Below are positions 28,344 through 49,535 of a stretch of 64,000 nucleotides of DNA, one piece after another; position 1 is the first letter of the stretch, and each line of letters opens with the position of its first letter. Location of the stretch: the NCBI RefSeq assembly GCF_026210795.1, contig NC_089434.1, positions 1,550,001-1,614,000 of the forward strand. Direction: 5' to 3'. The position numbers and the translations under genes are program-made. The notes beneath the pieces were generated by a model that ran no database searches, was not told the DNA's origin, and worked only from the letters and a program-made list of their open reading frames with translations. This stretch comes from Rhizophagus irregularis (lineage: Eukaryota).

Positions 28344-28831
28344 TGTTAGAAGTCAGTTCTTGTATGCTTAGGATTAAGCTATGTATATAAATTTATATTT
28401 TGGGTTTAGGCAGAAGGTTATAATTAATGGATCATTGTTAACGCTAAAATTGAACTGATCAGATGTAAATAATGTATCACTCAACACTAGTGCATACACT
28501 CAGATACAAATAAAGGTCACAAATTAGCAAAACTCAAAAATCAAAGTGTATATTTTAAAGATAAACCTTTTTTATTAATTAAATCCTAATCAACCGATAC
28601 ATTTTAATGCTCTTCTTTTACAGGTCTATATATATGTAAAAATACTAGACTAAAAATATCTAACATATTGCATTTATTAAATAAATTAAACATATTTGAT
28701 ATATTGAACATATTTGATATGTTGCATATATTTGATATGTTTCATATATGCAACATATGCAACATTTCGAACATTGATCATCACCCCGTGATTAGGCCGA
28801 ATTTTTGTCACGTGATTGATCGTTCGTTACA
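28344..28831 (-). repeat. 3' LTR of Gypsy element
   Basis: TGTTAGAAG...CGTTACA; direct repeat of 60073..60560; adjacent to PPT. Confidence 0.96.
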
Positions 28832-29265
28832 TCATCCCCCGCAAAAATTTCAACTCCCGTTAAAATTCCAATGGATTCGGTTACCAGTTTCTGATATTCT
28901 TCATGGCTTAATTGCCGAATCATGGTTGACGTTGTTTGAGTAGTCCGTGTGATTTGGGCAACTCCAGGAAGCTCAAATATGTAATATGTTCGTATGGCTG
29001 AAGTCCGATAATGTATTGATAATTGCTGCACGTAATAACTCCGCAAAGTACCAGTCATTTCTTTTTCTAGAAAGTGACCCATATAGAACAAATTTGTCAA
29101 CAATAAGATTCTATTTCTGAAGCGTTTTGCTCGTTCGATTGCTTCCTTTAATATTTGAAACTTTTCTCCATGGTTAATATTATCATCAAATGGTGGAGGA
29201 TAAGGGACAACAACTGCCAGTTGGTTTTGATATAAGTCTGTATAGATAATTTGAAAAGCATCCAT
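28792..29265 (-). CDS. Extra 157-aa ORF downstream of the Gypsy integrase, unknown function
   Basis: ATG-initiated open frame in element orientation between IN and the 3' LTR, reading through the PPT into the LTR. Confidence 0.65.
   Translation of the reverse strand: MDAFQIIYTDLYQNQLAVVVPYPPPFDDNINHGEKFQILKEAIERAKRFRNRILLLTNLFYMGHFLEKEMTGTLRSYYVQQLSIHYRTSAIRTYYIFELPGVAQITRTTQTTSTMIRQLSHEEYQKLVTESIGILTGVEIFAGDDVTNDQSRDKNSA
28832..28842 (-). other. Polypurine tract
   Basis: GCGGGGGATGA on the minus strand immediately before the 3' LTR. Confidence 0.7.
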
Positions 29266-29473
29266 TTCCGAATGATTGTAATTTCAATAATAATAATAAT
29301 TAAATAAATAATAACAAAAAAAAAACTAATAAAACTAAAACTAAAATTCCCGAAATTTTCTTTACATATATATAAAAAAAAACATCTCTTTTTTTCATCT
29401 CCTATTCTATTGATCGTCAATATTTAGTAAAGATCATCACTTCCAATAATTACACTTCTCATTACATGAATAT

Positions 29474-30553
29474 TTATGGATCACCACCTGATCGTTGGTG
29501 ATACAGTTTCAAGCGTTCTGAATTGATGGGATCCTTCAAAATTTTCCCGTCTAAGGTTCGCAACTTATAGGCACCATTATTTATTGTTTCATGAACATAA
29601 TACGGCCCTTTCCAGCGTTCTCGCAATTTTTGTTTTTCTCGTAATTGACTTTGATAAAGGAGAACCAGGTCACCGATTTTAAACTGCACGTCATGAAGAG
29701 CATTATCGTGACGTTGTTTTTGTTTCTGTTGCGATTGGTATATTACATCCTGTGTTATAAGCCGATCTCCCACAATTTTTCCGGTCAACGTATGAATTAG
29801 GTTGAAAAGATCTTGTTGAATATCACTTTCAGGTAGATCTACTTGAGTAGTCCGAATAGCGAATTCAATCGGCAGTATAGCATCTCTTCCATACATTAAG
29901 TAAAACGGTTCGTGTCTAGTCGTGTTATGTCTTTTTGTTCTATAGGCAAACAACACAGACGATAAGTACACGTCCCAATCATCCTTGTTTTCATTGGCAT
30001 ACTTCGCCAATGCTTCGCATAACGTTCGATTGAATCTCTCTACCAACCCGTTAGTTTGAGGATGATAAGCTGTTGATAATCGATGCTTCACTCCAAGTTC
30101 TTGACAAAGTGAATCTAACATTTTATTTACAAAGTGGGTTCCTCGATCGGTAAGGATTTCCTTTGGGCATCCATGCCAGCATATTATGTCCTCGTAAAAA
30201 AAGGACACCACAGATGAAGCCTTTGCATTTGGCAAAGCTCGGGCTTCCGGCCATTTGGTCAAGTATTCCGTGGCGACCACTATATACATATTTCCTTTCT
30301 TTGTCCTTGGAAGTGGTCCAACAATATCCATACCGATTCTGTCAAAAGGCTGCCCCACTTTTATTGGATGTAATGGTTCGTTTCTCCAATTTTTGCCTCT
30401 TTTCTGACATTCATCGCAACTTTTGACATAAACACGAATGTCATTGAACATTTGGGGCCAATAGTATCGGATTTTTATTCTTCGATACGTTTCATCAATG
30501 GAGAAGTGCCCGGCCAATGGGTCCGAATGTGAGTGGTGTAATATGCTCTCAAC
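29474..30553 (-). pseudogene. Gypsy integrase, C-terminal part (HHCC, rve core, GPY/F)
   Basis: HSDPLAGH...CDEC zinc finger; GMDIVGP, TDRGTHF, NGLVERFN catalytic motifs; WKGPY; joins in frame with 55556..55750 when the insertion is removed (KESEVE|SILHHSH). Confidence 0.93.
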
Positions 30554-31039
30554 ATCGTCGAGCTGGTAGTGTAGTCACTACGTTCCTCCACCTCGGCCAC
30601 GGCCTCGCAGTACCTACATCCCCCTCCGTGGGGCAGGTTTACCTGCCACAGTACCATGGTCTGCCACGGTATTTTTCCACTTATTTTTTTTTCTACATTT
30701 TTTCTTATATATAACTTACTATGACAACTATGGCAACTATGGCAGACTACTTAAAAACGGAATAAAAACGCGAATAAAGCCGAAATCAAACAGAATCTCC
30801 TGCCATAGTACCTGCCATAGTACGAAAAATCTTATAATAATACTATGGCAGCCTTAGTCAGCCCCTCAGACCCCAAAATTCGATTCACGCTATGATTACC
30901 CTTTATATACTCACCTAGACCCTCCAAGTATGATTCCCTATGTCCTGAACTATGGCACCCGAACTATGGCACCCGAACTATGACCACTTACCCCCGTCAG
31001 AAAAAATATATTCGGCAATTGAAGATTAGGTAACTATAA
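30554..31039 (+). repeat. Left terminal inverted repeat
   Basis: Reverse complement of 55070..55555 with about 8 differences by my count; contains CTATGGCA repeats and 14-bp GAACTATGGCACCC tandem units. Confidence 0.95.
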
Positions 31040-31049
31040 GTAACATACA

Positions 31050-31564
31050 ATGATAAACTTACACGCCGCCACTTCTCTTGCCGAAGACCTCGGGCTTGAT
31101 CTTGTAGACATCTATGGAATCCGTAAATGGATCCAAATTCGGGCATCACCCTCAATGACCTGGACATAGTAGCAGAGATGGTCAGAAACCTTCCGGTTAA
31201 AGAATTCGGAAAACATCTCAAGATTAACAGACTCTGGTATAACTGTTGTAAAGCCGAGTTGTGGAAGCGGCATAAAGAAGCCGAAGAGGTATACAAACAG
31301 GCAGTAGACTACTACAAGGAAGCCATTGACAATTTCAATGAAGCCGATCAGAAAAAATACACCAGGTTTGCAGGGATGGTAGTAATAGAAAGAGCACTCC
31401 TCAGATGCAGCTTTATAACGCAAGAGTCCGACTGGGAGAAATGGACTCAAATAACGTACAACATCCAATTGCTTAAGGAAGGTCGCACTCCTGACGACTC
31501 GGATGATGAATCAGATGATGGAGAGGTATCTCTCGATGACTCAGATGATGAGGAATACTTTTAG
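31050..31564 (+). CDS. F-box-like protein with acidic tail (probable start 31050 with a 1-nt frameshift at ~31125; intact frame from 31127)
   Basis: LNDLDIVAEMVRNLPVKEFGKHLKINRLWYNCC resembles an F-box; D/E-rich C-terminus; promoter motif 23 nt upstream of ATG 31050. Confidence 0.55.
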
Positions 31565-31573
31565 AAGGCGGTA

Positions 31574-31894
31574 CTAATCCGTCTTCCTCTTTTTTGCCTC
31601 CTTAAGGCATTTATCAATACACTGCTTACACGTGTCATCAGAATCTAAGATTTTCTGCCCGAGTTTTTTGCATTGCCGATTGTACGCCGTCTGATGTCTT
31701 TTAGCCGCAGTTTCTTTTTTCTTCTCCTTGGTTTTCTTTTTGATAACCCAGTCTATCCCAGTAAAAGTATTCTTATGCATCCCACAAACTACACAGTCAC
31801 CATGTAAACGATAGCGGCCATTTGTGGTCATATCTTGTATTTCACTAGCAGTCTTGGTTTCCTTCTTACACTTTAGGCAGTAAAATTGTGTCAT
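31574..31894 (-). CDS. DUF5679-like zinc-ribbon protein (106 aa)
   Basis: MTQFYCLKCKKET...TTNGRYRLHGDCVVCGMHKNTF matches the YCxKC...NGR...GxCxxCG pattern. Confidence 0.75.
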   Translation of the reverse strand: MTQFYCLKCKKETKTASEIQDMTTNGRYRLHGDCVVCGMHKNTFTGIDWVIKKKTKEKKKETAAKRHQTAYNRQCKKLGQKILDSDDTCKQCIDKCLKEAKKRKTD

Positions 31895-31938
31895 CTTAAG
31901 ATTTGAAGTCTGAAATCTTTCCTTTAATTTGTCGTAAT

Positions 31939-33029
31939 ATGTCGCATTTAGAGAATTACTACAAATACTACAATCTCTCCAGAGTACCGGCACGAATTCT
32001 AAAAGGTGAGGAGCACTACAATCTATATAAAAAGCCCCTAAAGGAGAAGTCATCAGAGCGTCCACGAGTAGTTGTATGGAAACCAAATGCAACACATCAG
32101 GCAGATCTTGCAGAGATGCCAGTCGACCCCAAAGGATTCCACTATTTCCTCGTAGTGGTAGAAGTCGCGGGTAAACAAGTCGATGCAGAACCCTAAAGGA
32201 TAAGACTGCAAATAGGGTTCTAAACGGGTTTGTCAAAATCTACAGAAGAAATCGTATTAAGCCACCAACACACAGACTGGAGACAGACTCCGGATCAGAA
32301 TTCACTAACGACCAGGTACGTGATTTTTTCCTGAACAGCCTAGGGGTAATGATGAGGTTCGGCGAACCAGGAAGACACAAACAGCAATCATACGCTGAAC
32401 GAGCCATCCAAGCAATCCAGAAACCTCTCCTAAAACGAATGGTGGCACAGGAGTTGAAGACCGGGGTGACATCCGTGGAATGGTCAGAAGATTTCTGTGA
32501 TGTAGTTAATAAAATAGATGAAATCTGGCAGAGAAATCCCCCAGACATTCCGACAGGGTCACCCAAAGTGTCAAAAAAGACGGAACTTCTCTCTGAAGGA
32601 ACACATGTCCGAGTCAAGTTAGACGAACCTATTTCAGTACTCGGGAATAAACTCCATGGAAAATTTCGTACAGGTGACATAAGATGGAATCCCAATATCC
32701 GTGTCATCAAAAAAATGATCCTCTCACCTGAACAGCCTCCTACGTATCTTCTTGATGGACCACACGGGCGTCTAGGTGTATCCAGATGTGCGTACACCCG
32801 AAAAGAGTTGCAGATTGTTCCAGAAAATGAACATCCCCCACCTGACTCCGTGATAAGAGGGCAACCCGAAAGATTTGTACCTGAGCGGATACTCCGGCAT
32901 CGCATCAGGAAGGGTCAAGACCAGTATCTAGTCAAGTGGGAACGATACCCAGATACCGAAGCCACTTGGGAACCCGCTGACCGGTTGGAGGAGGATGTCC
33001 CTGCCTTAATCCGCAAGTTTTGGGAATAA
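31939..33029 (+). CDS. Polinton-type retroviral-like (rve) integrase with C-terminal chromodomain, one frameshift at ~32191
   Basis: HQADLAEM (D), ETDSGSEF (D), AERAIQ (E); chromodomain ERILRHR...YLVKWERYPDTEATWEP; adding one C to the CCC run restores AEPLKDKT, ~363 aa. Confidence 0.88.
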
Positions 33030-33043
33030 AAAATAAATATTCC

Positions 33044-35946
33044 CTATTTTTTGTCTCCTCGATTCACGTCAGAAACTATCGGGATAAAAACATTCTTCTC
33101 ATTACAAGTAAGGGCGATATGTTCACGTGATTCATGGACATCATAATTGTAACATTTCAGACACGTCTGGCTCAATCCAATCTCCCTATGCTTGTAATCG
33201 CTTAAAACTGCGAGATTCTCAGTGATTACACAATCAGGGTTAGTTTGATTGACACACCTTTTACCATGCCGAATGTCCTACCAGAACCCGGAGCGCCGGA
33301 TATGTTATGTGTAATACTCTTGTCGATATCCAACCCTAATTCTTCAGCGGCTTCCCTCTGAATAAAAGACGCGTTAGCACAAGTGTCTGCTAAACACTGA
33401 ATTGCTATCCCATTGACCTCCCCATCCAGCGCTAAAAGATCTTTAGTATTCTCCAAACGAGCTATGTCAATATCCATCGGGTCATCTTCCCTGATATCCT
33501 CTTCTTGTTTTTCCTCAACTAGGTCTTCTGGAATCTCCGTACTTTTACGAGCAGACTTTAATTCTTCCCGAAGAATCTCGCGGAGTAATTTTCTAAAATC
33601 TGCAGACCTTAATAAACTTAATGAATCATTTTTGGTGACGGCTTTTATAAGTGTGGGCTTACTACTAGTAACCTTCACAGGAATCTTAATAGGAGTCATT
33701 TTAACTGATTTTTTTGGAACAGATTTAAGAAGTTTCGAGATACTTACACCCTTATCCGAGTTTACTTTTTTTTTTTGTACTTCGAACTGCACAAATCCGA
33801 AAACCACCTTCCTCATCGGGAACAATTTTCAAGTCATCAAAACTCGCGGTATTAGTATCAATATCCATAGCATCATCATTAAGATCGAGGTTTCTCATTG
33901 CTCGGGCTAATTCCAGATCATCGCGTCTATCTTTAGCCTTCTGAAGTCTCTTTGGAAATCTTTTAGACGTCTCATATCCCATAATAAGATCAATAACATG
34001 TTGATCATCCTCACTAGTCCACTCAGGAGCATCAGGGTCACTAGGGTCATCACCAAAATCATGATCTACATAACCATCATCCCAATCAGGATCCTGATGA
34101 TCCTGAACAACGCGTGGCCGTGGCTTTGGCCGAACAGGTTTAATCTGTTGTCTATAGACCGGTGGTTTACGAACTGGCTTAGATGCTTGTAATTGTTTAA
34201 ATTGTGCCTGGAAATTCTTGGTAAGTTCCTCGGCTTGTGCCTTGAGCAATTCTTGTAATCGTTCTTGAGTAATAACGTCTGTCGACCTTTGTATTACAGC
34301 ACCTTCGTGTGGAGTCACGGGATGAGTATAGCCAGCCAATTCCTCTTTTTTAGCCTTTTCAATACCCTGACGCCTTTGTAATCCATAGAACATTTCACCC
34401 TTTCATCGCTCAAGATCACTCAATCTATCGATTAATATATTAAGAGGTGCCGCCCCGATTCTGGAAGCTTCAATAACGTTTTCCGGCAAAAGTCCTCTAT
34501 AGAACTGGTCAGTAACCATAATTCGATTATATCCTACAATATCCCCAGCCCTCTCAACTCGCTTATAGTAAGATCGAACAGGTTCACCTTGTTCCTGGTA
34601 AAGGTTACTAAATCGTATTTGAAGTCTTTCTTCCACGACGGTTGGAAAATTTGTACGCATATACATAAATGCTTGATCCAGGAGAATCCCCTGTAAGACT
34701 ATTGGTTGATTCTGGACAGCAGCATTAAATGGACCTCCATGATTTCCCAACCCATTAACGGGTTGATGAGTAGGACGTCCGCCCGCACGCCTCCACTGCT
34801 CTTCAACTTTAAAATTCGTTCTAACGATATCAGCGCGTGATGGGAAAAATGTTTCTCCAACGGTTCTCGCCGCATTAGCTAAAATCCTTGAATATGCATC
34901 AACATCAGACCCGGGTAAGTAAGTACCAACATGTAATCCATTAGCAACCTCAGGAACAGCTAAAGCTCTGAACGCTCGGCGAGTAGCACCGGCTCCACCA
35001 TTTGCAGTAGCCACTAACCGAATATTCGAGAGTTCCCAATTTTTTCCAGTAAGTTCTGCATCAAACCACCTCGCCGCTTCATCTCTCATACAGCTACGAA
35101 GAACCCCCATCGCTCGCACCCGACCCAGAGGTGCACCGGCATCGTCCAACGGATCAATACCAACGGTATTAATATACCCTAAAAAGTTATCAATAAAAAG
35201 ATTAAGATCTTCATCTTCCCGACCATGAAATATAGGGGCAGCTATACCAATGGCAGCCATATCGTATTTTGTGGATGGTTGAGAGGAGGTGGAGGAAGGT
35301 TCAATTGTCTGATCCGAAACCATTGTACTTGGATACGCAGAGCGGCTATTTGTTGGAAAAGTCGATTCCTAAGACGTCCCAATGTCCGAATTCCAAAAAG
35401 AACCCGATTATTGGCATATACAAGCCGATTTCGTGCCGCATCACGCTCGCCTATAGCTCTATTACGTTCACCTATAGCTCTATTACGTTCTCCTCTCATA
35501 AGATTATATTGCTGCTGAAGACGATGATTAGTCGTCCGCATACCACCAAACTCACGTTCCAATTCAGCCAAATTAGCTTCTAAACTAGTAATAGTATCTT
35601 GTACGTTATTTAGCTCATCTTGTGTAAGACCTAACAAACCCGTTTGAACCTCGAGTTCATCTTGTAATTCATCACGTTTTTTTCGAGATCGATCACGTTC
35701 CGCTTTTAATATATCGCGTTCTTCGTATGTTTCTCTACAGCGATGAATTAATAAATTAAGAGCATGTTTAAGACGATGGTTTGCATTTTGTACATCTTGA
35801 TTAACAACCATGCGATCACTGACAGTTAAAAAATCTGTTAGATCCTTAATTACCGCAACTAATGGTATATTATTCATATCACGCAAATCCCTAGGAGGCG
35901 GTCCAGTAGGCTCTGAAGGAGTATAAATTGCAATTGGTGTCGACAT
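33044..35946 (-). CDS. Coiled-coil + retrotransposon Gag-like capsid + retropepsin-like protease polyprotein (no RT/RH), 4 interruptions
   Basis: APIFHGREDEDLNLFIDNF...CMRDEAARWF and LYQEQGEPVRSYYKRVERAG...DQFYRGL (Gag CA motifs); MDID motifs; LDGEVNGIAIQCLADTCANASFIQREAAEELGL (protease); frame changes at ~35270, 33766-33776 and ~33238, in-frame TGA at 34403; ends ...FIPIVSDVNRGDKK*. Confidence 0.8.
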
Positions 35947-36523
35947 CGTATTTAAACTAAGATAGAATAAAATTCAAATGGATCTTTATGTATACAATTT
36001 GGACGAGTACACGACCGACTCGAGACAGGGTAATGAGTTTGCCCCATCATGGCCTTTCCGTCTTGCCGTAGCAGGAAGTTCTGACTCGGGTAAGACAACT
36101 ATGATTATTAATTTGTTAATGGGAGACAAGAAGGCAAAGGAGGATGGCGAAAGGTACATATTATGTGATGCGGTAATTCTAGTTGGCAGATACCTTGATG
36201 AACCGAAATGGGCAGTCGTACGTGATTTTTTCAAAGAAGAAGAAATTCCGTTTACCGCAGTATCCCATAGTGAGATTCCAAATGTTAAGGACTTCAACTC
36301 CACCCAGGCTACTGTGGTAATCTTCGAGGATTTGATGGATGCGCCTAAAAAAACCCAGGATCTCATCACTGGATTTTTTACACACGGGCGTCACAAAAAT
36401 ATCTCGTGTATCTATGTGGCCCAAAGATTCTTTACCATTCCTAAGGCTATTCGTGAAAATGTGAATTATATTTCCCTACATGGAGGTCACGGAAGTTTGA
36501 CCGATACTAAGAGGATCATCCGC

Positions 36524-37835
36524 TGTAGCCATAGATACTGGAGTAATCGCATAATATGGAGGAATAATATGGAATAAAAGATCAAACGATAGAAAGTCAC
36601 ATGATGGGATAAAATTAACCGGAAAGGATAAACTTTTAGGAGAAGGAATGATCTACATGATGTAATGTTTATTAAATGATTAACGGAGAACCAATAGATC
36701 AAGTGGGGGAGTTGATCGATGTGGCTTAGCAACCAGTTTATCAAGTTCAACAATAGGAACAATTAGGAGGAGTAATCATAAGCCACAAATGATAAATCAT
36801 ATAAAAAGGAAGGATAGCGAATTAAAGGAACAAAAAAAAATAGGAACATGTAAAATATTGATGAACTGCAGCCGCAGTAGAAGAATAGCTGACGAGACGC
36901 AGTAGAAAAGATAGCACAGCCACAAAAGATGGATCTTTACAATATAATATTTGAAAGATTATTTTATTTTAAAGAAAAGATAGCACAGCCACAAAAGATG
37001 GATCTTTACGATATAATATTTGAAAGATTACTTTATTTTAAAGAAAAGATAGCACAGCCACAAAAGATGGATCTTTACGATATAATATTTGAAAGATTAT
37101 TTTATTTTAAAGAAAAGATAGCACGGCCACAAAAGATGGATTATATCTTTACAACATAATATGCGAAAGATTATTTTAAAGAAAAGATAGCATATTAAAA
37201 TAGTATAACATATTAGAAAAGATAACATATAAAATAGCATATAAGATAGCGCATAAAAGATAACATATAAAATATTAGAAAGAAATAAGAAGTAGGAAAA
37301 GAAAGAATAAGAAAGTTGGTTTAAATAGGAGCGGAATGGGAAGTGAATTCCACAGTCGTCAGATACGATGTAAAACTTTAAGTAAATTAGTTAATTGTGA
37401 ATTTTATGAAGAATAAATAAAATACCCTTTATATGAAAATTAATTGTTCCGATTGTTTTTGTTACTATTTTCTTATGATGAAAAAGTAATTTTGTTTAAT
37501 TAATTGTTAGTAAAGCATAATGTTATTTTAAAGGTAATAGGTTCGCCCTAAACTTTACTGTAATGTTCGCTTAATTAATTTTAATTGGACAAATTCATGG
37601 TGAATTTAATGTCATAACAAGAATTATGAAATGAATAAAATATAAACTTTTGTAAAGAGAACTATCGTATTTTGAAAGAAGATAATGGATGAAATATCGT
37701 GGCGAGAGCTATCGCAATTTGAAAGTTAAGTAGTAATAAAACTAAACCAAGCAAGAATATTAATGTTTCGTGGAGAACGAATATACATTAAAGCAGGGAA
37801 GTTTGTTTACCGCCGGGTGGCAGACGGGGGTGACA
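36524..37835 (-). mobile_element. Probable solo LTR (1312 bp) of another LTR retrotransposon
   Basis: TGT...ACA termini; 4-bp TSD CCGC (36520-36523, 37836-37839); AT-rich and noncoding; no TIR beyond 3 bp. Confidence 0.8.
36905..37190. repeat. 69-bp tandem repeat (~4 copies, last degenerate) inside the solo LTR
   Basis: Unit AGAAAAGATAGCACAGCCACAAAAGATGGATCTTTAC...TTTAA. Confidence 0.9.
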
Positions 37836-38530
37836 CCGCCAGTATACAGAAGAATCGGAGTCACTAGCTCCAGTAATCGATGACTTTACTCTACAACGCG
37901 AATTTATAGTATTTGATCTTAGAAGATCTAAGAGCGATCCGTTATCTATTCGGGTTAGATGGGATACTAGTCTCAGTTCGATCACCGATCAATCTCAGTT
38001 CGATCCTAGTTCGATCTCAGTTCAATTCCCGTTCGATCCGAGTTTGAACCCAGTTCAATCGAAGTTCAATCCGAGTTTGAACCCAGTTCGATCGAAGTTT
38101 AGTTCCTATGGCCAGAAAGCCGTAGCTGAAGCAAAAAAGTCCTCCCAGCTAATCGAGTTTGCTCGGGAATATCCGTCGCCTAAAGAGAGAAAACACCTTC
38201 TCGTATCTGGTGTTATAGCTAAGAACGCAGATACCTGGATTAAGTACGTCTTTCGGGAAGCCTACGGACTATCTGGTAAGACCTTGGGATCAGACTTCCA
38301 AAACTTCTTAGCGAAAGTACGGGATAGGACCACGAAGACTGAAATTCCAAAACCTGAGACCGTAAAGGAGTTATTCTCCCGATATGAAGTCCTGAAGTCT
38401 AGTCACCCTTTGGATAATAAAAAATTAATAGAAGGCATCGGGGTCCTTTTACAGATCTTTTCTAAGGGTCATATGGACCGTTGAGCATTACGAGTAGGGA
38501 TCAATAGTATTTTGTAAGAATCTGGCTGCT

Positions 38531-38983
38531 TTAGCAACCCATCTCGTGAAGTTCTTCCACAGAAGCCCTAAGAATCATGGCGCTTTTTTTACGTCCTTCG
38601 AAGTCAATCCGTAGCATCCTAGCTTTTAACCCAATAGCTCCTAAGGCTCGAGAAGCAAAGTTCTTAGTCATCGGATTTCTTACATGACTTACATAGTTTT
38701 CATAGAATGTAGTAAAGGGTTCGTCAATACCATCCGGGTATGTATTCCGTAAGAACTGATATAAGGCAATTTCCCCACTGTCACATCCAATGGCTATAAG
38801 CTGTTCAAGAAGCCACTTCCTAGTATCCTCGTATGAATCTCCGTCCATAATTTTCATATCCAGTCTTTGTGTGAATAATTGCGTAAAATCCGCATTACTT
38901 GCCCGACGGATAATCTGGACCAACTTATCCCTGGCAAGTCCCAAGGCTTGTAAAGGTTCACTCTCGTCGCCAATCTTCTTTAT
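38531..38983 (-). CDS. Hypothetical protein of the Polinton-like element, start uncertain
   Basis: ~150-codon open frame converging tightly on the ATPase; C-terminal half loosely resembles a winged helix. Confidence 0.5.
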   Translation of the reverse strand: MKKIGDESEPLQALGLARDKLVQIIRRASNADFTQLFTQRLDMKIMDGDSYEDTRKWLLEQLIAIGCDSGEIALYQFLRNTYPDGIDEPFTTFYENYVSHVRNPMTKNFASRALGAIGLKARMLRIDFEGRKKSAMILRASVEELHEMGC

Positions 38984-39046
38984 AATCTATCTATACAACA
39001 CGCTGGATAATCCTCTATATGCCACTTTTGCAGAGAATACTCCACA

Positions 39047-39566
39047 AGGACCCAGAAATATATATACAGGGGTAGGGTACACAGATGCGTCGCCATCATA
39101 GTGGAATTAGACGGAGTAAAGTTTTGATTTGCGTACAATTTTAGAATTTTTCATCTATAGTTAGGTCATCAAGATTGCGTATTTTTTATCAAATTTTTTA
39201 TATGTAAAAAATTAGTTTGCGTATTTTTGACCTAAATTTGGCTAATCTTATATATATAATATATTTGCTGTACGTACTTATTTAATTAACCGAATTGTAA
39301 GAAATTTCTAAGGGTTAAAAAGTGAAATTTTAGAAAATATTATTAAAAAAATGGTAAATTCTATTTTTCACATTAGTATTTATAATATAGAAGCCATGAT
39401 AAAATAATTAATAACTTAATGTCTGAAATTTTATTTGCGTATTTTTGCAGGATTTTCAATATCAGGTGTCAATTATGCGTACTACTCATATAAAAAGTCT
39501 CTGCGTACAGCTCATAGTAAAAAATTTTTTCGCCACCTGACCCCTATATATATATTTCTGGGTCCT
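39047..39566. mobile_element. MITE (520 bp), superfamily uncertain
   Basis: 27-bp TIR AGGACCCAGAAATATATATAYAGGGGT; 8-bp TSD ACTCCACA (39039-39046, 39567-39574). Confidence 0.9.
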
Positions 39567-39770
39567 ACTCCACAGTTCTGACACTGGTTTATTACGATTG
39601 ATGTTGACATGGCTATCTTTCTTTGATTATTCGCTCACTTAGTATCCTTCACAATCTTTTTTATATATTGTTATCTTTAAATACCTGTCATTTGTATAAA
39701 AAAAAATAACTGGCATTAAGGGATCGACCGTTGGAAAGACCGGAGGACCAGAGGACCAGAGGACTGACCA

Positions 39771-40355
39771 TTAGGAAGCGCAGTCCTTGCACAACTTGTC
39801 CGTTAAGTCACTTGGGCTCACAGGCATGAGACATTCCCTACACAACTCAATATTAAGCTCTGCAAGTCTCGGGGCATGGTCCTCCAAAGTTCGTGGACGA
39901 CCGGAAGGACCAGAGGAAGGTGTCCTGTTAGTCGTATCTTGCTGTAAGATAAAATCATCATATTCATCTTGGTCAGCCTGAATAGCGGCCCTGATTTGTT
40001 GTATATCATTAAAAGTTAACCGCTGGCCATCAAGATTTTCCTCATTATAGCGCGTTTCATTGATGATTTCCTCTATAAGCTCCTCCTCTTCAGAATGAAC
40101 AAGGTAGTAGTCCTCAACTACCTCGTAGTCACTCTCAACCAGTCTATGATACGTTCTAGTACCGTGTTGAATATAGCGTCCTGTATCTGTATTTAAATAT
40201 ACAGGTTGTTCCTGGGGTGGAGGCGGTATGGTTTGTCTACGGACAAGCCTTCCATCGATATAATCATGGGATTCCATAACTATTCGATTAAAGGTATCTC
40301 CACCAACACGGATTGGACGTCCGGTTATAGGATTAGTTATATAAGGGTATGACAT
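39771..40355 (-). CDS. Protein with two NPxTGR-type (2-cysteine adaptor-like) motifs and C-terminal CxxC..CxxC finger, 194 aa
   Basis: NPITGRPIRVGGDTFNRI and NTDTGRYIQHGTRTYHRL; LCRECL...LCKDC; promoter motif 28 nt upstream of ATG. Confidence 0.6.
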   Translation of the reverse strand: MSYPYITNPITGRPIRVGGDTFNRIVMESHDYIDGRLVRRQTIPPPPQEQPVYLNTDTGRYIQHGTRTYHRLVESDYEVVEDYYLVHSEEEELIEEIINETRYNEENLDGQRLTFNDIQQIRAAIQADQDEYDDFILQQDTTNRTPSSGPSGRPRTLEDHAPRLAELNIELCRECLMPVSPSDLTDKLCKDCAS

Positions 40356-40699
40356 GTCTTTTTTCTGTACATACCTAATTGTTATCTTCAATTTACAATA
40401 ACCAAGTGACATCGTCATCAGTCCTTGTCAAGGTAAATATGGCATAGTAGCCTTTATCTTTATTAAATTTATTTAACGAACTTACAAAAATAAAATAAAA
40501 TTTTCAAAGTACAAAAAAGAAAAATAAAATTAACTAAAAACAAAACTATATAGTCTCCAAAACAGTAATAAAGCTATAAAATTAATTCAAAAAGGAAAAA
40601 ATCGCATAACACTAAAACTATCCTGATCCCCCGCCTAGATATATTCCAACCTAAGAAGAAGCAACTATGCAAACAAACCAACGAACAATGCGCCCATTA

Positions 40700-43600
40700 T
40701 TAAAATCGACACACCATCCTGCTAAAGCTGTTAGTAAGTTGCACCGTTAGACGACCTATAAAACCCGAATAGTGATTAAACCAAGGCAAACCATATTTCA
40801 TCGAGTTCTTTAAATAATCAACATCGGAGTCACATGCGGTATCGGAAAGGGTCGGAGGAGGTAAAGTTGAGAAGGGTAAGTACGTGGACTTTGGCAAATT
40901 AGAAGGCCGAGAAAGTTTGAGTTTATGAGTAATATTCATCGCGTCTTCCCATTTAGATTTATCATAGGAGCGCGGTAGCCAAATTCGTTTTCTGATCTTT
41001 TGGATAAAGTGATTGTGGATAGCAGAGATAACCTTCATCGCAGAATTACGTGGAATAGAAAGTTCTTCAAAAAATTCGACAAAGGATTTCGGAAGGCAGC
41101 CACGGACAAGGCTATATGAGGTCCAATTTGAAGAAGAAAAGGACCAACAAGGAAGAGATTTAAATTTGTTAATAATTAAAGAGGGATCTTTCTTAACGAG
41201 ATCACCAGCTTCTTGAAGTTTGTTGATAAAATGATGTTGGTAGGAGAGAAGAATCTGTTCCATAGCGATTCGTCTACATTTACACATAAACAAGTGTATG
41301 AAATCTTCCTTGGAGTCGAGGCATGAACGACACAATAAAATGTCGATGTACAAGTCCGGGCGAATTCTTTTAAGATGTTCCAAGGTAGGCAATTCTTCCA
41401 AAAAGAGTTTGAATTTGAAGGTGCGATGAGAGGAAGCATGAGCACGAGTAAAGGAAGCATCATGCTGAGGTTCAGAATTTAGCGAAAACCAAGTAAGATC
41501 CCAGTCAATCACGAAATCTGAAACAGAAAATAAAGTAAAAGTAAAATTGAAATGCGATAAACGCGTTAATCTATGCATCCACAACATCTGCGAATATTGC
41601 TTGAATAGGCGTCGAGGGTTGGATTCGCATAAAATATCATCATAGTTTAATATAAAATCGTGGGGAGAAACTTGATCCAGATCGGAAAGAAGAATTGCTG
41701 ATGAAGAAGTATGCGCAGAATTGGCCAAAGAGTCCGCGTAGTCATTATAAAAATTACCAGAGTGACCTTTCACTTTAACAGCTGTGACGGATAAAGATTT
41801 GGAGGAAATGAGACGTTCAATAATAGCCCAGAGTTCAAAATTGGTGGTCTTGTAATAAAGCCTGCTATTGGAATAGGAAAAGGTAGCACATAGACGAAGA
41901 CCATCTATGGCAGATTGAGAATCAGTATGAATAGTGACCGTTGAAGAGGGAGGAGTAACTGTAAGAGCAGCATGTATAGCGGCGATTTCAGCTCTTGTAG
42001 AAGAAGGCCAATTGTGAATAATTCCATGAGCGTGAGTAGCGATAGATTGGAAAAAACCAGCGCCATCGAGGACTTGAACCCAAGACCAACCCATAGAAAC
42101 ATCAGGAGTGCCAAGGTTAATTAAAGAACCATCGGTATAAAAACAATAATGGTTATCAGGAGGAGTCGCTAACGGTGAGGCAGCAAAAGCAAGAGGGGCA
42201 GCCGATCCCAAAGAGGGAGGAGGAGAAGGAGAAGGGAGAGTAATAACATCTTCTTGTAAAAAATTAGGTAGAATGTCCAAACGACCGTAATAGGATCTTA
42301 CAGTCTCGTCAAGGTCCGCCCAAGTAAAAGGAGAAGTAATAGTGGTGGTGTCATGTCTAATACGCTCCTGCGTTGTTGGGAGAAGTAAAGATCTAAGAGG
42401 AGAAAGTTTTGGGATGATACATAAAGGAGTAACATCTGTTGGATTGCATTTATTATGGGTAACTGGTACATGTTTAGAACAACCGGGACAAGGAGTAAGC
42501 GTGATAACATCATTAGGTCGAATCACACAATCAGAGGTCCAATGGACAATTTTGCAGGAATATTGTTGTTTGCTAAGTTGTTTTCCAAAAAGAGGAGAGC
42601 CATCTTCATCCAAAGTCACGATCCATTTCATGGATTTGCGAGAGGAACCAAAGGCTGGAGCCAAGTCAATATTTGAAGGAGTAGCATCGGAAGAGAATTG
42701 ATCCAAGAGCAGTGAATTGGAGTTTGGAACAGTGACGCATTGGTGAATATTATTAAACCATTTATGCGGGAGGATACGATGACCTTTCCTACTTGATAGA
42801 TTGGATAAATAAACATTCCAAGTGATCATATGGGTTCCTTGAGGCGTGATGAATTGAGATAGGTAATAGAGTTGCAAACTTCTTAGACGTCGGAAGTAAG
42901 ATATAAAAATTTTTGGAGTCATCACTTCAAATAAAGGCGTGTGACCATCAGGTATGGTGAGGTCAGACGAGGTTGAAAATCGAGAACGTGACAACTTGAA
43001 AGGAGTGGTGGTCAGGAGAGCAATAATGCAAGCGATATAATCCTGTTTAAAAGCGAAAAGTTTAGACCATAAAGTCCAATCTGTAACTAACAATGGAGAA
43101 ATGGGAATCAAAAAAGAAAATTGAATTAAACGTAATCTATATAAAAATAAATTTTTCATAAAAAAAGAAGAAGAATTAGCTAATAAAAACAAATTAGTTA
43201 AATGTGTTTGTGATTGGTGAAAAAATAAATTAATCAATCCCAAGCCTTGAGATAAAAACAAAATAGAATCTGGAAGTACACGTGAAAAATTGGCCTTATG
43301 TTTAACCAAGGAACGGATACTGCTGGTTGCCGACGCACATTCAGATTCAGAGAGGTGTGTGACTTGCATGCGATATTCCAATTTCGGGATAAGGACAGTG
43401 TTGTGTAAATAAACTACTTGCTTAGCAGATAATTTAGCAGGGCGAACGGTAGCAGCGAAAGAGTTACATTCTCGAGCAACTTGCTTTCTGACAAAATCAC
43501 GAGATCCAGCGACATTGAACCAGACGCCCAGGAAGCGGAAAGAACTATTCATGGAAATAGGCACAATAGAAATGGAAGGAACTTTGTTCAGTCCAGATAA

Positions 43601-46321
43601 TTGCAAGTCAAACACGACTGGAGAAGGCGAAGGAGCTGAAGTGGGAGGCAACGAATTAGTAATTAAAACATATTTGTTGTGATTAGCGGAAGTATTATTG
43701 ATCTGATAAAATTCTTCTGTAATAGAAAGCATCGATTCCATTCCAGATTTAGATGACGAAATTAAAGTGGAATCGTCCATAAAGACCAAGTTGTTGATGC
43801 GTAATCCATCGGGACTTATCGCAGCCAAGGGATTAGATAAAGAAGGAGCATGAAGTATATATGGATCCATCATTTCATTCTTAAGAACAGTCAATAAAGG
43901 GTCTATATATATAACCCAGAGTAAAGGAGAGATAACTTCGCCTTGATCTATACCAATACGAACGCGGTAAGAAGGTGTAGTTCCATGAGCAGTAAAAACG
44001 CGATTAGAGCGTTTCATAAAAAGGGATAAAATAAACTTGGTAGCAGAAGCAGGAAGTTTAATGCGTTCTAAAGCAAAACGCAACATCTTGAGATCAACCG
44101 AGTCGAAAGCTTTCGAAATATCTTGTGAAAGGATCCAAAGCGGCAATTTGTTGACATGAGCGTCATGGATAATAGATTCCAGGACGACAATAGGGTCACG
44201 ACAAGAACCACCAGGGAGACCGGCGAAGTTTCCTCCTTTGAGAACATCATTCGAAGCCAAAATGGAAGCGAGACGATTATAGAAGAGTTTGACCAAAGAT
44301 TTCCTAATTACTTCAAGTAAAGTAATAGGTCTTGTATTCTTAAGTTGACATTTCCATTCGTGAGGTTTAGGGATAGGGAAAACCATAGCTTGACGCCATA
44401 AATCAGGAATATCTGCAGTATGGAAGCATGACTGGACCAGGATTAAGACCAAAGCTGAAGCGCTGGAACCCAGATGCTTAAGCATCTCATAAGTAATCAT
44501 AGAAGGACCAGGAGCTTTGTCGTTAGGCATAGAAGAGACCGTAGACAACCATTCTTCAAGAGTAGGAGGATCCAACAAAGAATCATAAATAGAAGAATTC
44601 ACATCATCCATAGGGCGATAAGCAGAAGACCATTTTTCAGGAAGAGCTGAAATGTTATCAGGAGGAGATGATTTAATAGGTACGGAATTCTGGAAGTGGT
44701 TGATAACAGCGTCATCAATATCATGCAGGTCCGTTAGAAGTTTAGGTTGTGTAGGGTGGTCGATAAAGACTCGATCCAATGTGATATGACGTCGAGTCTT
44801 TGAGAGAGCCGAATTAATGAATGAGGAAATATCAGATTCAAAATTGTTGTCCCTATCATCCACTTTAGCACGAATGGAAGAATCTTGAAAATCTTTTTCT
44901 TTGAGAAGGAGGAGGCCATAAAGGGCACTGGAAATAGTCTTTAAGGATTCTAATAAAGAAATAAAACCGTCTTGCCTACATGTGGTTAAAGAAGTAGGTA
45001 AAACAGGGGGGGAGGGAATAACCTTCTTATAAAGATGAAGAATTTTCTTAAGTCGAATGAAATGTATGGACCAAACATGTTCATATCTATTAAAATATGT
45101 GGAAGGATATTTGCGCAATAAGCGTATCGAATGCAAAAGACGGCTGAGGAAACGATAATGTTGAGTTAAAGCTTCCAAATCTTTAGGCACCGTAGGTGTG
45201 TGTTGATTACCGACCGTGACAGATGGAAGAAAAGCATTAGCAGCTTTCACGATACGGGAATGTAAATATTCACATTGTTGATTGATGTGCCATGTTGAAA
45301 AAGTAGAAGGAAGAACGTCGCAAAGAGAGTCAGTGTGAGTGGAAAAAGATTCCCATTGTTGAGCAGTGACTGAATCAAATTTGAAAATGCGGCGAGTTCG
45401 ACGTTGAAGTTGTTTAGCACGAGCAACCTTGATAGACGCAGCCAAGAGTGAATTATCAAAATACGTGATGACAGGATTGTGATCAGAAGAGCAGGTATCA
45501 TGGGCGTCGAATATGTAGGAAGTGAGAGCAAAGCTTTTAAGCATCGGGCAGGACCAAACATAGTCTATGCGAGTAATCTGGTCATCACGGTGGAAGGTGC
45601 CTAGGGAATCAGAAGCATTAACAGGAATGGTTTCTTCATAACCATGAGATAAAAGATGATGCAACAAACGATAAGACCGTTGAGAAGCAACAGAAGGGCG
45701 GTTAAAATAAATAGGGTAATAAGTATCTAAATGCATATTAAAATCGCCACAAATGGCGTGATAAAAATTTTGTTGTTTAGTTTGCACTAGTAATTGTAAA
45801 AGGAGATCAATAGTTTCAGATCGTAATTTAGAATCGGAAATAGGAGGGATATATATAACAAAAATACGCAATTTAATGTTGCCTTTAAAATAAAGGTCAA
45901 CAGATAAAATACGTGAGGAATGTGAAACAAAGTCTTGTACATGAGAAGCAAGAGATTTTTCAATAAAAAGGGAAACGCCACCAGTAGATTTGACTTGTTT
46001 AGTTTTATCTATGTCAGAGGAAAAGACAGTATAATTAGGAAGGCATTTAGATAAAAAATGAATTTGTTTGGGGGATAAATGGGTATCTACGATACCACCA
46101 AGGGAAATATGTTTAAGGTTGAAAAAGTTTGAAATTTGTTCAATTTTAACTTGACTATTATGTCGAAGGCCGTTAATATTAAAGGATGAAATATTAAAGG
46201 AATTGGGGATAGGAGAAGAATTTAAGGTGGTAAATAAAGATTCATGTTCTGAAAAATTATAAATATCTACAGGGTTGGGAGGGTTCCGAACAAACGTATC
46301 ATAATTAAAATTGTCAATCAT
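40700..46321 (-). CDS. LINE ORF2: APE endonuclease, reverse transcriptase, RNase H, C-terminal zinc finger (1873 aa)
   Basis: SFNINGL, GDFN, RIDY, SDH (APE); KAPGP, RPITLL, DISKAFDSV, GIDQGEVISP, FMDD, FLG (RT); YTDGS, RAEIAAI, TDSQ, KVKGHSG (RH); CRSC...H. Confidence 0.97.
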   Translation of the reverse strand: MIDNFNYDTFVRNPPNPVDIYNFSEHESLFTTLNSSPIPNSFNISSFNINGLRHNSQVKIEQISNFFNLKHISLGGIVDTHLSPKQIHFLSKCLPNYTVFSSDIDKTKQVKSTGGVSLFIEKSLASHVQDFVSHSSRILSVDLYFKGNIKLRIFVIYIPPISDSKLRSETIDLLLQLLVQTKQQNFYHAICGDFNMHLDTYYPIYFNRPSVASQRSYRLLHHLLSHGYEETIPVNASDSLGTFHRDDQITRIDYVWSCPMLKSFALTSYIFDAHDTCSSDHNPVITYFDNSLLAASIKVARAKQLQRRTRRIFKFDSVTAQQWESFSTHTDSLCDVLPSTFSTWHINQQCEYLHSRIVKAANAFLPSVTVGNQHTPTVPKDLEALTQHYRFLSRLLHSIRLLRKYPSTYFNRYEHVWSIHFIRLKKILHLYKKVIPSPPVLPTSLTTCRQDGFISLLESLKTISSALYGLLLLKEKDFQDSSIRAKVDDRDNNFESDISSFINSALSKTRRHITLDRVFIDHPTQPKLLTDLHDIDDAVINHFQNSVPIKSSPPDNISALPEKWSSAYRPMDDVNSSIYDSLLDPPTLEEWLSTVSSMPNDKAPGPSMITYEMLKHLGSSASALVLILVQSCFHTADIPDLWRQAMVFPIPKPHEWKCQLKNTRPITLLEVIRKSLVKLFYNRLASILASNDVLKGGNFAGLPGGSCRDPIVVLESIIHDAHVNKLPLWILSQDISKAFDSVDLKMLRFALERIKLPASATKFILSLFMKRSNRVFTAHGTTPSYRVRIGIDQGEVISPLLWVIYIDPLLTVLKNEMMDPYILHAPSLSNPLAAISPDGLRINNLVFMDDSTLISSSKSGMESMLSITEEFYQINNTSANHNKYVLITNSLPPTSAPSPSPVVFDLQLSGLNKVPSISIVPISMNSSFRFLGVWFNVAGSRDFVRKQVARECNSFAATVRPAKLSAKQVVYLHNTVLIPKLEYRMQVTHLSESECASATSSIRSLVKHKANFSRVLPDSILFLSQGLGLINLFFHQSQTHLTNLFLLANSSSFFMKNLFLYRLRLIQFSFLIPISPLLVTDWTLWSKLFAFKQDYIACIIALLTTTPFKLSRSRFSTSSDLTIPDGHTPLFEVMTPKIFISYFRRLRSLQLYYLSQFITPQGTHMITWNVYLSNLSSRKGHRILPHKWFNNIHQCVTVPNSNSLLLDQFSSDATPSNIDLAPAFGSSRKSMKWIVTLDEDGSPLFGKQLSKQQYSCKIVHWTSDCVIRPNDVITLTPCPGCSKHVPVTHNKCNPTDVTPLCIIPKLSPLRSLLLPTTQERIRHDTTTITSPFTWADLDETVRSYYGRLDILPNFLQEDVITLPSPSPPPSLGSAAPLAFAASPLATPPDNHYCFYTDGSLINLGTPDVSMGWSWVQVLDGAGFFQSIATHAHGIIHNWPSSTRAEIAAIHAALTVTPPSSTVTIHTDSQSAIDGLRLCATFSYSNSRLYYKTTNFELWAIIERLISSKSLSVTAVKVKGHSGNFYNDYADSLANSAHTSSSAILLSDLDQVSPHDFILNYDDILCESNPRRLFKQYSQMLWMHRLTRLSHFNFTFTLFSVSDFVIDWDLTWFSLNSEPQHDASFTRAHASSHRTFKFKLFLEELPTLEHLKRIRPDLYIDILLCRSCLDSKEDFIHLFMCKCRRIAMEQILLSYQHHFINKLQEAGDLVKKDPSLIINKFKSLPCWSFSSSNWTSYSLVRGCLPKSFVEFFEELSIPRNSAMKVISAIHNHFIQKIRKRIWLPRSYDKSKWEDAMNITHKLKLSRPSNLPKSTYLPFSTLPPPTLSDTACDSDVDYLKNSMKYGLPWFNHYSGFIGRLTVQLTNSFSRMVCRF

Positions 46322-46368
46322 TAGAACACAATGATAATAGAGTACGGGGAAAGGAGGTGAGAAATCGG

Positions 46369-48501: not shown

Positions 48502-49039
48502 GTTAGAAGGTATGAGTTGGGTAAAATATAAGAGTTATTAGTACGAAGATATAAAATTTTCTTTCCGAAAATTTTTGGTTAATAGATCGGCGGTAAGAGA
48601 TCTATCATCAGTATCAGTCCTTGTCAAAAAATGCGAGGATGCCTGATGATGAGGTTACATGGTCATCAGTCCTTGTCGCAAAACACGAGGATACCTGATG
48701 AATAAGTTATTGGATTATTGGCCTAAAAAGCATTCATGGAAAAACTATGGATTATATTACAGAAAATGTGAACGGAGTTCATGTCACGTGATACCCTGAA
48801 CAAATGTGTAGAGTGTCACGTGATTTCATGCGGTACGTAGATCATTTCCTTTTTGGGCGATACCCGTTTCACAAAAAATCGATTTTGGTAAAAATGCGTT
48901 TGGAACCTTGTGTAACATAAATTTCCTTTTTCGGTAATTCGGGATTACGCGGTAATGCCGGCCGGATCTAAAAAATATGACTCTGCAGGGTAATTCCTAC
49001 GAAAGTCAAGTACAAAATGCTTACTCCTGTTGAGTCCAT

Positions 49040-49426
49040 TCATACCACTCCCCAAGGATCGCCTCCCCATCTATGTTCACTTAATGCATGCTCTATGGTT
49101 TCCCTCTCTTGGGGGTCCACGACCATCCCATTCCTAAGCATTTTCTCCATAATATAAAGCTGATCCTCGGTGAGGCGGTCTATCCATCTTTTATAGAAGT
49201 CGTTTACATCTTCAAATGTTATCCAGTCAACATTTCCTTTTTCGAATGGCTTTCCAAGAGCTCGGACATACCCGATCGTAGTGGCATAATTTTTCCACCT
49301 CTTATATGCCTCTCGACGAACTTCCTGCCACCACACTCTATCTACCTTACTCGCTGCAATAAGGTCAGTATCCGGGATCTTTGCGACAATGCGTTCGACT
49401 ATTTCTACTGGTAATCGGTCTAACAT
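49040..49426 (-). CDS. Small F-box protein (128 aa)
   Basis: MLDRLPVEIVERIVAKIPDTDLIAASKVDRVW is a canonical F-box pattern. Confidence 0.8.
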   Translation of the reverse strand: MLDRLPVEIVERIVAKIPDTDLIAASKVDRVWWQEVRREAYKRWKNYATTIGYVRALGKPFEKGNVDWITFEDVNDFYKRWIDRLTEDQLYIMEKMLRNGMVVDPQERETIEHALSEHRWGGDPWGVV

Positions 49427-49535
49427 GATGTTATGTTACTTATACTATAGCTATCTTCAATTACTGTATGCCTATTACACATGGATAAAAAATATAGACT
49501 AAATTCGTACAGAATCGTAGGACCACAGGAGCCGC

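What the first reader, a model, noticed from the sequence alone, without database searches (positions are those of the whole stretch)
33044..38484. Polinton-like DNA element whose morphogenetic module appears to be retrotransposon Gag + aspartic protease beside an A32 packaging ATPase, with no jelly-roll capsid
Seen: inside the TIR-bounded element a ~965-codon gene has Gag-CA motifs. They align by eye with the true Gypsy Gag in this window (APIFHGREDEDLNLFIDNF..EAARWF vs LPYFYGGNQDPIAWLEDF..AASTWW; QEQGEPVRSY..FYRGL vs QQPGEDVNTY..FVNGL). A retropepsin-like domain (LADTCA) follows, then a stop. There is no RT, RNase H, CCHC knuckle, LTR, PBS or TSD around it. Its stop lies 14 nt from the convergent integrase stop and its ATG 31 nt from the divergent ATPase ATG, so it is packed like a native gene. 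No other ORF in the ~15-kb element looks like a double jelly-roll MCP, penton or adenain. Established: canonical Polintons pair the A32 ATPase with DJR capsid proteins and a cysteine protease. Inference: this lineage replaced that module with Gag-PR, giving a chimeric dsDNA element that may build retro-type particles. I do not recall such an element being described but cannot check the literature.
Basis: partly seen in the sequence, partly recalled or inferred. Interest (0 to 1): 0.94.

Follow-up and report, generated by a model that had tools for sequence, protein, structure and literature searches.

The report
DNA transposon with retrovirus-type capsid genes
A family of large DNA transposons in a mycorrhizal fungus and in soil metagenomes keeps its DNA-virus-type packaging ATPase but carries, beside it, genes for a predicted retrotransposon-type capsid and a protease in place of the usual DNA-virus capsid, so it likely builds hybrid virus-like particles.

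Summary
The feature is real and conserved. The window holds a decayed ~15-kb Polinton/Maverick (486-bp TIRs, pPolB, D5 helicase, chromo-integrase, A32 ATPase) of Rhizophagus irregularis type, nested in a Gypsy element. The 'Gag gene' is three ORFs: a coiled coil, a Gag, and a retropepsin. The Gag model matches retroviral/retrotransposon CA (top 37 structure hits). In soil contigs picked by the ATPase alone, 20 of 20 with enough flank (12 clusters) carry this Gag divergently, 12 of 12 the protease, and 0 of 56 a reverse transcriptase. The protease lies in the -1 frame behind a run of exactly nine A in 13 of 13 loci, as in retroviral gag-pro. No room remains for a jelly-roll major capsid gene. 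Glomus Polintons are published as ATPase-positive and capsid-less, so this likely supplies their missing capsid. One 2021 figure legend already lists Gag/retropepsin labels for an unnamed PolB element, probably this one. Expression, particles and DNA packaging are untested.

The parts
30555..31039 (+). Left terminal inverted repeat (~486 bp); target-site duplication of 6 bp (with a 1-nt asymmetry) or 5 bp
31127..31564 (+). 145-aa ORF of unknown function (weak MIT-like helical hit)
31574..31894 (-). DUF5679 zinc-finger protein, conserved next to the integrase in relatives
   Evidence: E 8e-17
31939..33029 (+). rve integrase with C-terminal chromodomain; frameshifted near 32190 in this copy, intact (364-366 aa) in relatives
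33044..33776 (-). Retropepsin ORF (D-T/S catalytic motif), read in the -1 frame after Gag; broken near 33236 in this copy
33766..33776 (-). A-run at the Gag/protease junction (11 nt here, exactly 9 in 13 of 13 loci): candidate -1 recoding site
33752..35260 (-). Gag ORF: CA N- and C-terminal domains (residues 1-285, with a ~115-residue insertion in the NTD) plus a low-complexity tail without CCHC; in-frame stop at 34403-34405 in this copy
35242..35946 (-). Coiled-coil ORF, homologous to the N-terminal part of the CCHC-bearing sister Gags; its stop overlaps the Gag start
35978..38484 (+). A32/FtsK-HerA packaging ATPase (396 aa when intact) with a helical C-terminal extension; split by an insertion
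36520..37836 (.). 1.3-kb secondary insertion in the ATPase, with a 69-bp tandem repeat
38531..38986 (-). Conserved ORF (~200 aa in relatives), weak Pox_D5 winged-helix lead
39037..39566 (.). MITE-like secondary insertion with ~30-bp inverted repeats
39771..40355 (-). Conserved ORF with 2C_adapt-like repeats and C-terminal cysteines
40432..48612 (-). LINE (RRM ORF1; endonuclease-RT ORF2) inserted with a ~15-bp duplication
49040..49426 (-). F-box protein
49536..50006 (-). Conserved helical ORF (129-157 aa)
50089..50613 (-). ORF with IQ-like C-terminus, also seen in L036 and L037
50677..52529 (-). Short protein-primed-type PolB (624-628 aa in relatives; DxxSLYP, KxxLNxLWG, HTDG), frameshifted here
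52759..55041 (-). D5-like superfamily 3 helicase (DUF5906, Pox_D5), one in-frame stop here
55070..55555 (-). Right terminal inverted repeat
28344..60560 (-). Host Gypsy element (LTRs ~28344-28831 and ~60073-60560) whose pol gene the Polinton interrupts

Best explanation
This is a Polinton/Maverick lineage that carries a coiled-coil, a predicted retro-type capsid (CA) and a retropepsin as a fixed neighbour of its A32 ATPase, and it likely uses them as its particle-building module in place of the jelly-roll capsid. Shown: gene content, order, conservation, the CA and A32 folds (by prediction), purifying selection, absence of RT and of a zinc knuckle. Inferred mechanism: an ancestor captured coil-CA-NC-protease from a retroelement family, lost the RNA-binding knuckle and never kept RT; Gag is translated from its own AUG (likely by termination-reinitiation after the coil ORF), a minority of ribosomes or transcripts slip on the A9 run to give Gag-protease, the protease matures the shell, pPolB and the helicase copy the linear DNA, the ATPase would load it into or condense it for the CA shell, and the integrase inserts it again. 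Odds by step: native conserved module 0.95; forms particles 0.7; particles hold element DNA 0.6; ATPase pumps DNA into a preformed CA shell 0.4.
For: Linkage: ATPase-picked loci, 20 of 20 with >=1.5 kb upstream have CA, 12 of 12 with >=3 kb have protease, 8 of 9 with >=3.5 kb have the integrase, 0 of 56 match the Gypsy RT or integrase; the 20 form 12 clusters at 90% DNA identity. In named R. irregularis gene models 21 of 43 Gag loci lie within 5 accession numbers of an ATPase although the ATPase list was partial (GET series 15 of 25, random mean 0.8). Fold: pLDDT 87.9; the top 37 VIA rows are all CA-family (HIV-1 Z 9.9, rmsd 3.9, 141 aligned; RSV CTD Z 9.8, rmsd 1.9, 71; also PEG10, dArc, PNMA2, copia, Ty3); Foldseek agrees at weak E-values; Retrotrans_gag in 33 of 99 members. 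Recoding: -1 frame 12 of 12, A9 13 of 13 versus 0 in 8,247 other Gag nt. Selection: CA dN/dS 0.23-0.30 in four informative pairs, protease about 0.3. ATPase keeps Walker A/B and the GRH motif and matches A32/IVa2/virophage ATPases. No unassigned stretch above 427 nt in the element. Published: a Glomus Polinton scored MCP-, penton-, protease-, ATPase+ (PMC4028283 Table S1); its MCP is called still missing (PMC7805220).
Against: No expression, particle or packaging data. No known CA capsid has a portal or works with an FtsK-type motor (my knowledge). CA and ATPase distances correlate only weakly (Spearman 0.23, p 0.10 on 9 dereplicated loci; 0.27, p 0.018 on 14), so the two genes do not clearly co-diverge. 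CA is far more variable than the ATPase (dN/dS up to 0.87 in saturated pairs; 1.92 in one short near-identical pair). No conserved hairpin follows the A-run (z -2.6 to +1.6). NCBI gene models bridge both frame changes with introns, and I could not test splicing. CA Z-scores (<10) are in the range helical bundles can reach by chance; the case rests on their consistency. The short PolB has HTDG for DTDS and no recognisable exonuclease; its activity is unproven.
Confidence: 0.6

Rival explanations
1. The Gag-protease cassette is native and selected but does not package the element: it serves as an intracellular scaffold or as a dominant-negative restriction factor against competing retrotransposons, while the ATPase works in replication or segregation of the linear DNA.
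For: Endogenised CA domains act as restriction factors (Drt2 appears among the fold hits). Relatives also carry small ORFs with a CA-CTD-like domain, one fused to an F-box (L029, L010), which points to capsid-directed conflict. Weak CA/ATPase co-divergence.
Against: A full two-domain CA, a catalytic protease and a conserved -1 junction are the kit for assembly and maturation, more than restriction needs; the cassette is locked head-to-head with a packaging-type ATPase.
Confidence: 0.22
2. Particles form but DNA enters by co-assembly (as in caulimovirus-type capsids), or the particles carry element RNA that a reverse transcriptase copies in trans; the ATPase is then accessory.
For: CA lattices normally assemble around their nucleic acid (established knowledge). 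The host genome has RT-bearing Gypsy and LINE elements.
Against: The CCHC knuckle is absent in 6 of 6 full Gags checked and their tails are not net basic; TIR ends and pPolB indicate DNA-to-DNA copying; the ATPase is the best conserved gene of the module.
Confidence: 0.13
3. The cassette is a one-off remnant of an LTR retrotransposon that jumped into a Polinton and was copied passively.
For: This copy is decayed and has three other insertions. A CCHC-bearing sister Gag family exists in the same fungi.
Against: Same position and orientation in 12 clusters whose CA identity falls to 29-40%, with open frames and purifying selection; no RT, no flanking repeat.
Confidence: 0.03

Closest known systems
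Glomus intraradices / Rhizophagus irregularis Polintons (Polinton-1_GI, P_Gi1.1, P_Gi1.2)
   Same: Same host group; P_Gi1.2 is tabulated as ATPase+, MCP-, penton-, protease- (PMC4028283 Table S1 rows). Mavericks are expanded in Glomerales (PMC11952901 passages). Probably the same family; I could not compare sequences.
   Different: Those texts treat them as capsid-less or capsid-unknown (PMC7805220 passage; bioRxiv 10.64898/2026.06.19.733378 passage); none of the passages mentions Gag.
[quoted passage not shown] 5 of Starrett et al. 2021 (PMC8502044)
   Same: [quoted passage not shown] 3 legend. Likely prior annotation of this or a similar element.
   Different: Figure not visible to me and the supplement was cut, so identity is unconfirmed; section 3.4 does not discuss it. 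Here NC is absent, the cassette is three ORFs, and conservation and recoding are shown.
Canonical Polintons/adintoviruses (Polintoviricetes)
   Same: TIRs, pPolB, rve integrase with chromodomain, A32/FtsK ATPase; one relative (L019) joins this ATPase and coil ORF to a full 1,176-aa Polinton PolB.
   Different: No jelly-roll major capsid gene or adenain found; a D5 helicase and a shortened PolB are present.
Ty3/Gypsy and retroviral gag-pro modules; Arc/PNMA2/PEG10 domesticated Gags
   Same: Two-domain CA, retropepsin, -1 frame relation at the Gag end, coiled coil ahead of CA.
   Different: No RT, RNase H, LTR or zinc knuckle; resides in a DNA-replicating TIR element beside a DNA translocase.
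Coil-CA-CCHC-protease Gag family of Glomeromycota (P0446, P0458, P0352, P0350)
   Same: Nearest relatives; share the coil, the CA insertion and a lysine-run end; other side of one branch from the ATPase-linked Gags (87/97 support).
   Different: Coil fused in frame, zinc knuckle kept; genomic context unknown (no RT in 17 gene models), so their being LTR elements is an inference.

Membership tests
Polinton/Maverick | Long terminal inverted repeats | tested here: met
   486 bp, 98%
Polinton/Maverick | 6-bp target-site duplication | tested here: inconclusive
   One copy only; 6 bp with a 1-nt end asymmetry or 5 bp with a terminal mismatch
Polinton/Maverick | Protein-primed family B polymerase | tested here: met
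   DNA_pol_B_2 above cut-off in L047 (E 2e-6); motifs A, B, C with HTDG variant; canonical motifs in L019. Terminal protein not tested.
Polinton/Maverick | Retrovirus-like (rve) integrase | tested here: met
   rve E 7e-6 (below cut-off), chromo E 6e-17, D-D-E residues present
Polinton/Maverick | A32/FtsK packaging ATPase | tested here: met
   Pox_A32 E 1e-10; fold matches A32, IVa2, virophage and STIV2 B204 ATPases
Polintovirus (virion module) | Double jelly-roll major capsid gene in the element | tested here: not met
   By room: largest unassigned gap 427 nt, unexplained ORFs <=218 aa. No Polinton MCP profile was on hand; a helper in trans is not excluded.
Polintovirus (virion module) | Penton (single jelly roll) | tested here: inconclusive
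   No hit in Pfam, PHROGs, NCBIfam or the Atlas; the small ORFs were not folded
Polintovirus (virion module) | Adenain/Ulp1 cysteine protease | tested here: inconclusive
   No Pfam hit in any ORF scanned; absence by profile only
LTR retrotransposon (Ty3/Gypsy) | CA fold | tested here: met
LTR retrotransposon (Ty3/Gypsy) | Aspartic protease after Gag, reached by a frameshift | tested here: met
   Frame relation and motif shown; the recoding itself was not measured
LTR retrotransposon (Ty3/Gypsy) | RT and RNase H | tested here: not met
   0 of 100 proteins, 0 of 56 loci
LTR retrotransposon (Ty3/Gypsy) | CCHC nucleocapsid knuckle | tested here: not met
   0 of 6 full Gags
LTR retrotransposon (Ty3/Gypsy) | LTRs around the cassette | tested here: not met
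   No similarity between the 700-nt flanks; primer-binding site not tested
Virus (any) | Particles that protect and transmit the genome | not testable with these tools
   Needs bench work

The most novel reading that the evidence does not exclude
A cross-realm chimeric virus of mycorrhizal fungi: a linear dsDNA genome copied by a protein-primed polymerase and pumped by an A32/FtsK motor into a protease-matured, retrovirus-type CA capsid, with no reverse transcription step; the jelly-roll module was replaced wholesale by a Gag-pro module whose zinc knuckle was dropped.
Probability: 0.4. Interest if true: 0.96.

Novelty: new variant of a known kind. Interest (0 to 1): 0.84.

Why it matters
It offers a concrete answer to a stated gap (no capsid found in Glomus Polintons that still keep the packaging ATPase) and makes it testable. 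Capsid type defines the highest virus taxa, and packaging ATPases are thought to be tied to jelly-roll or HK97 capsids (my knowledge); a selected, long-lived pairing of an A32 motor with a retro-type CA would break that rule and show capsid swapping between DNA viruses and retroelements. Mavericks are recently expanded in Glomerales (PMC8647823, PMC11952901 passages), so particles could move DNA between nuclei or strains of a key plant symbiont.

Tried and rejected
No assembly was held for the window, so copy number and linkage came from gene models and metagenome contigs. IMG/VR scans with Gag-protease, ATPase and a sister Gag found nothing; one scan could not run on a diverse alignment. GTDB scans gave nothing and one 35-residue match (L057) that I dropped. 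BLASTP of the CA against the Gypsy Gag NTD failed. No PDB sequence hit for the short PolB. No Rfam match. No conserved structure 3' of the A-run. The ATPase-CA complex was not folded, so there is no verdict on binding. The window protease was misframed in the dN/dS script and its row is discarded. BFVD holds no close CA relative. The context of the CCHC sister family could not be fetched. Four look-ups of earlier scan findings gave nothing relevant. The MMBR 2024 polinton review was not held; Kapitonov and Jurka 2006 and Pritham 2007 were not read. Rejected readings: single polyprotein; ORF 37834-38484 as its own gene; Gag as a fragment of the surrounding Gypsy element (too divergent).
Full report
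1. What is in the window. Inverted repeats at 30555-31039 and 55070-55555 (98%) bound a 25.0-kb stretch that interrupts the pol gene of a Gypsy element (LTRs near 28344 and 60073). Three later insertions lie inside: 1.3 kb in the ATPase, a 0.5-kb MITE-like piece and an 8.2-kb LINE. Contigs of four public runs join across the first two and the LINE has a ~15-bp duplication. Without them the element is about 14,980 nt. Pfam finds DUF5679, a chromodomain integrase, a retropepsin, Pox_A32, an F-box, DNA_pol_B_2 (weak) and a D5/DUF5906 helicase. The closest proteins are 98-100% identical and named Rhizophagus irregularis. This copy is decayed: integrase, protease, Gag, polymerase and helicase each carry a break, and for the first three, contigs from other runs do not.

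2. The capsid. An AlphaFold model of 35260-34406 (99-sequence alignment, pLDDT 87.9) has two helical domains with a ~115-residue, partly beta insertion in the first. Against 48,161 solved chains the first 37 rows are all CA-family, covering both domains (HIV-1 CA Z 9.9, rmsd 3.9, 141 aligned; RSV CTD Z 9.8, rmsd 1.9, 71; HERV-K, MLV, PEG10, dArc, Arc, PNMA2, copia, Ty3 NTD, foamy virus); the first unrelated row has Z 4.7. Foldseek gives the same families at weak E-values (best 0.017 in PDB; 0.09 in BFVD). Independently, 33 of 99 members match Retrotrans_gag at E<=0.05, though the window's own protein does not.

3. Is it native? I picked loci by the ATPase only (56 metagenome loci, 47-98% identity). 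Of 20 with at least 1.5 kb upstream, 20 have CA on the opposite strand; of 12 with 3 kb, 12 have the protease; of 9 with 3.5 kb, 8 have the convergent integrase (L036 has another ORF there); 44 of 46 with 300 bp have the coil ORF; none of 56 matches the Gypsy RT or integrase. The 20 fall into 12 clusters at 90% DNA identity. L014, L026 and L047 continue to the polymerase, L047 to the helicase. Gag-side: 100 long homologues, many of them isoform models of the same loci, show aspartic protease in 90 and RT, RNase H or rve in 0. Of 43 Gag loci defined by accession, 21 lie within five numbers of an ATPase accession (GET series 15 of 25 against a random mean of 0.8, maximum 6 in 2,000; GBC 5 of 16 against 0.1). 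That count used only listed members of 10 clusters each, left out protease-only and unnamed members, and the two series overlap. dN/dS for CA is 0.23-0.30 in four informative pairs, higher (to 0.87) in saturated pairs and 1.92 in one short near-identical pair; protease about 0.3; ATPase 0.00-0.44. Against my reading, CA and ATPase distances correlate weakly (p 0.10 after dereplication), which suggests module shuffling among lineages.

4. Three ORFs, not one. In 27 of 27 loci Gag starts at its own ATG in the -1 frame of the coil ORF, with a purine at -3 in all 27 (the G at +4 is partly imposed by my search pattern); the coil frame stops 13 or 16 nt past that ATG in 25 and 29 nt before it in 2; in L008 the coil frame is broken. 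The stop needs an xTA codon that occurs in 35% of comparable positions, so it looks selected; termination-reinitiation is my inference. The protease is in the -1 frame in 12 of 12 loci behind exactly nine A in 13 of 13 (six clusters), with no such run in 8,247 other Gag nucleotides; 11 of 13 near-full-length representatives also end in a lysine run. The window has 11 A; contigs lacking two make up all depth in two runs, 44% in one and 5% in another. Ribosomal -1 frameshifting or transcriptional slippage both fit; no conserved downstream hairpin was found. Gene models bridge both junctions with varied introns; RNA evidence is lacking.

5. Origin. The nearest Gags have the coil fused in frame, the same CA insertion, a CCHC knuckle and a protease, and occur in Rhizophagus and Entrophospora. 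In a 48-row CA tree the 13 ATPase-linked rows and the 10 CCHC rows lie on opposite sides of one branch (87/97, below the starred level; midpoint root only). Capture from that family with loss of the knuckle is the simplest account, but direction and the donor's nature are not shown.

6. No jelly-roll capsid gene. After assigning genes, the largest free stretch is 427 nt, and overlapping contigs L010+L047 and L014+L026 leave no room either. Unexplained ORFs are at most 218 aa and gave no capsid, penton or adenain hit; they were not folded, so a penton is not strictly excluded. PMC10640383 (section 9 read) reports no MCP in five R. irregularis strains, but it also missed A32 and D5, so it is weak support. 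The ATPase (model pLDDT 79.8) is an FtsK/HerA-A32 protein with intact motifs and a ~140-residue helical tail of untested fold. By a rough estimate, 15 kb of DNA would fill about half of a 40-nm cavity (Ty3 capsid size recalled), a density that would need a motor.

7. Literature. Nine full-text searches (open-licence library only) found no text describing this architecture. PMC4028283 (passages and supplement rows) lists a Glomus Polinton with ATPase but no MCP, penton or protease. PMC7805220 (passage) says its MCP is still not found. bioRxiv 10.64898/2026.06.19.733378 (passages) places Glomus/Rhizophagus A32 ATPases with Maverick-Polintons. PMC8502044 (section 3.4 and passages; figure unseen; supplement cut) and its preprint (passages) have a legend with Gag/retropepsin and S3H labels, which probably anticipates the annotation. 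PMC11952901, PMC8647823, PMC11075540, PMC11161782, PMC11296320, PMC13533422 and two further preprints were seen as passages only and do not link Gag to these elements.

8. Verdict. The chimeric architecture is solid; the particle is a hypothesis. I file it as a new variant of Polinton, possibly labelled once before in a figure, with a 0.4 chance that it is a new kind of virus that pumps DNA into a retro-type capsid. Interest 0.84.

Noticed in passing
L029:2508-2879 (-) and L010:128-445 (-): Small accessory ORFs with a CA-CTD-like domain, one fused to an F-box: possible capsid-directed ubiquitin adaptors or competitor-restriction proteins.
   Followed up: partly
L019:2154-5681 (-): Same ATPase and coil ORF but a canonical 1,176-aa Polinton PolB with an endonuclease VII insert, so the replication module varies within the family.
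   Followed up: partly
window 50677-52529 (-); L014, L026, L047: Short PolB (624-628 aa) with HTDG in motif C, no recognisable exonuclease, and a Cys/His pair in the N-terminal half recalling an OTU-type protease (motif reading recalled).
   Followed up: partly
window ~58405-58415 (-): The host Gypsy gag ends in TTTAAAC plus stop with pol in another frame, a classical -1 slippery site.
   Followed up: no
window 34690-35050 (-), CA residues ~70-190: A confidently modelled ~115-residue Gly/Ala/Asn-rich insertion in the CA N-terminal domain, shared with the sister Gags and not covered by known capsids; may be a surface spike.
   Followed up: partly
P0446, P0456, P0461: CCHC-bearing sister Gag-protease models also end in lysine runs, hinting at a second frameshift into an unseen downstream gene.
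   Followed up: no
window 36520-37836: 1.3-kb insertion with four 69-bp tandem units and no coding hit; type unknown.
   Followed up: no
window 35947-35977: A TATTTAAA/TATTAAA-like motif recurs in the short divergent spacer in most loci and also just before the Gag ATG in L035/L036; possible element promoter.
   Followed up: no
window 62782-63499: 19-bp tandem array of about 37 units outside the element.
   Followed up: no
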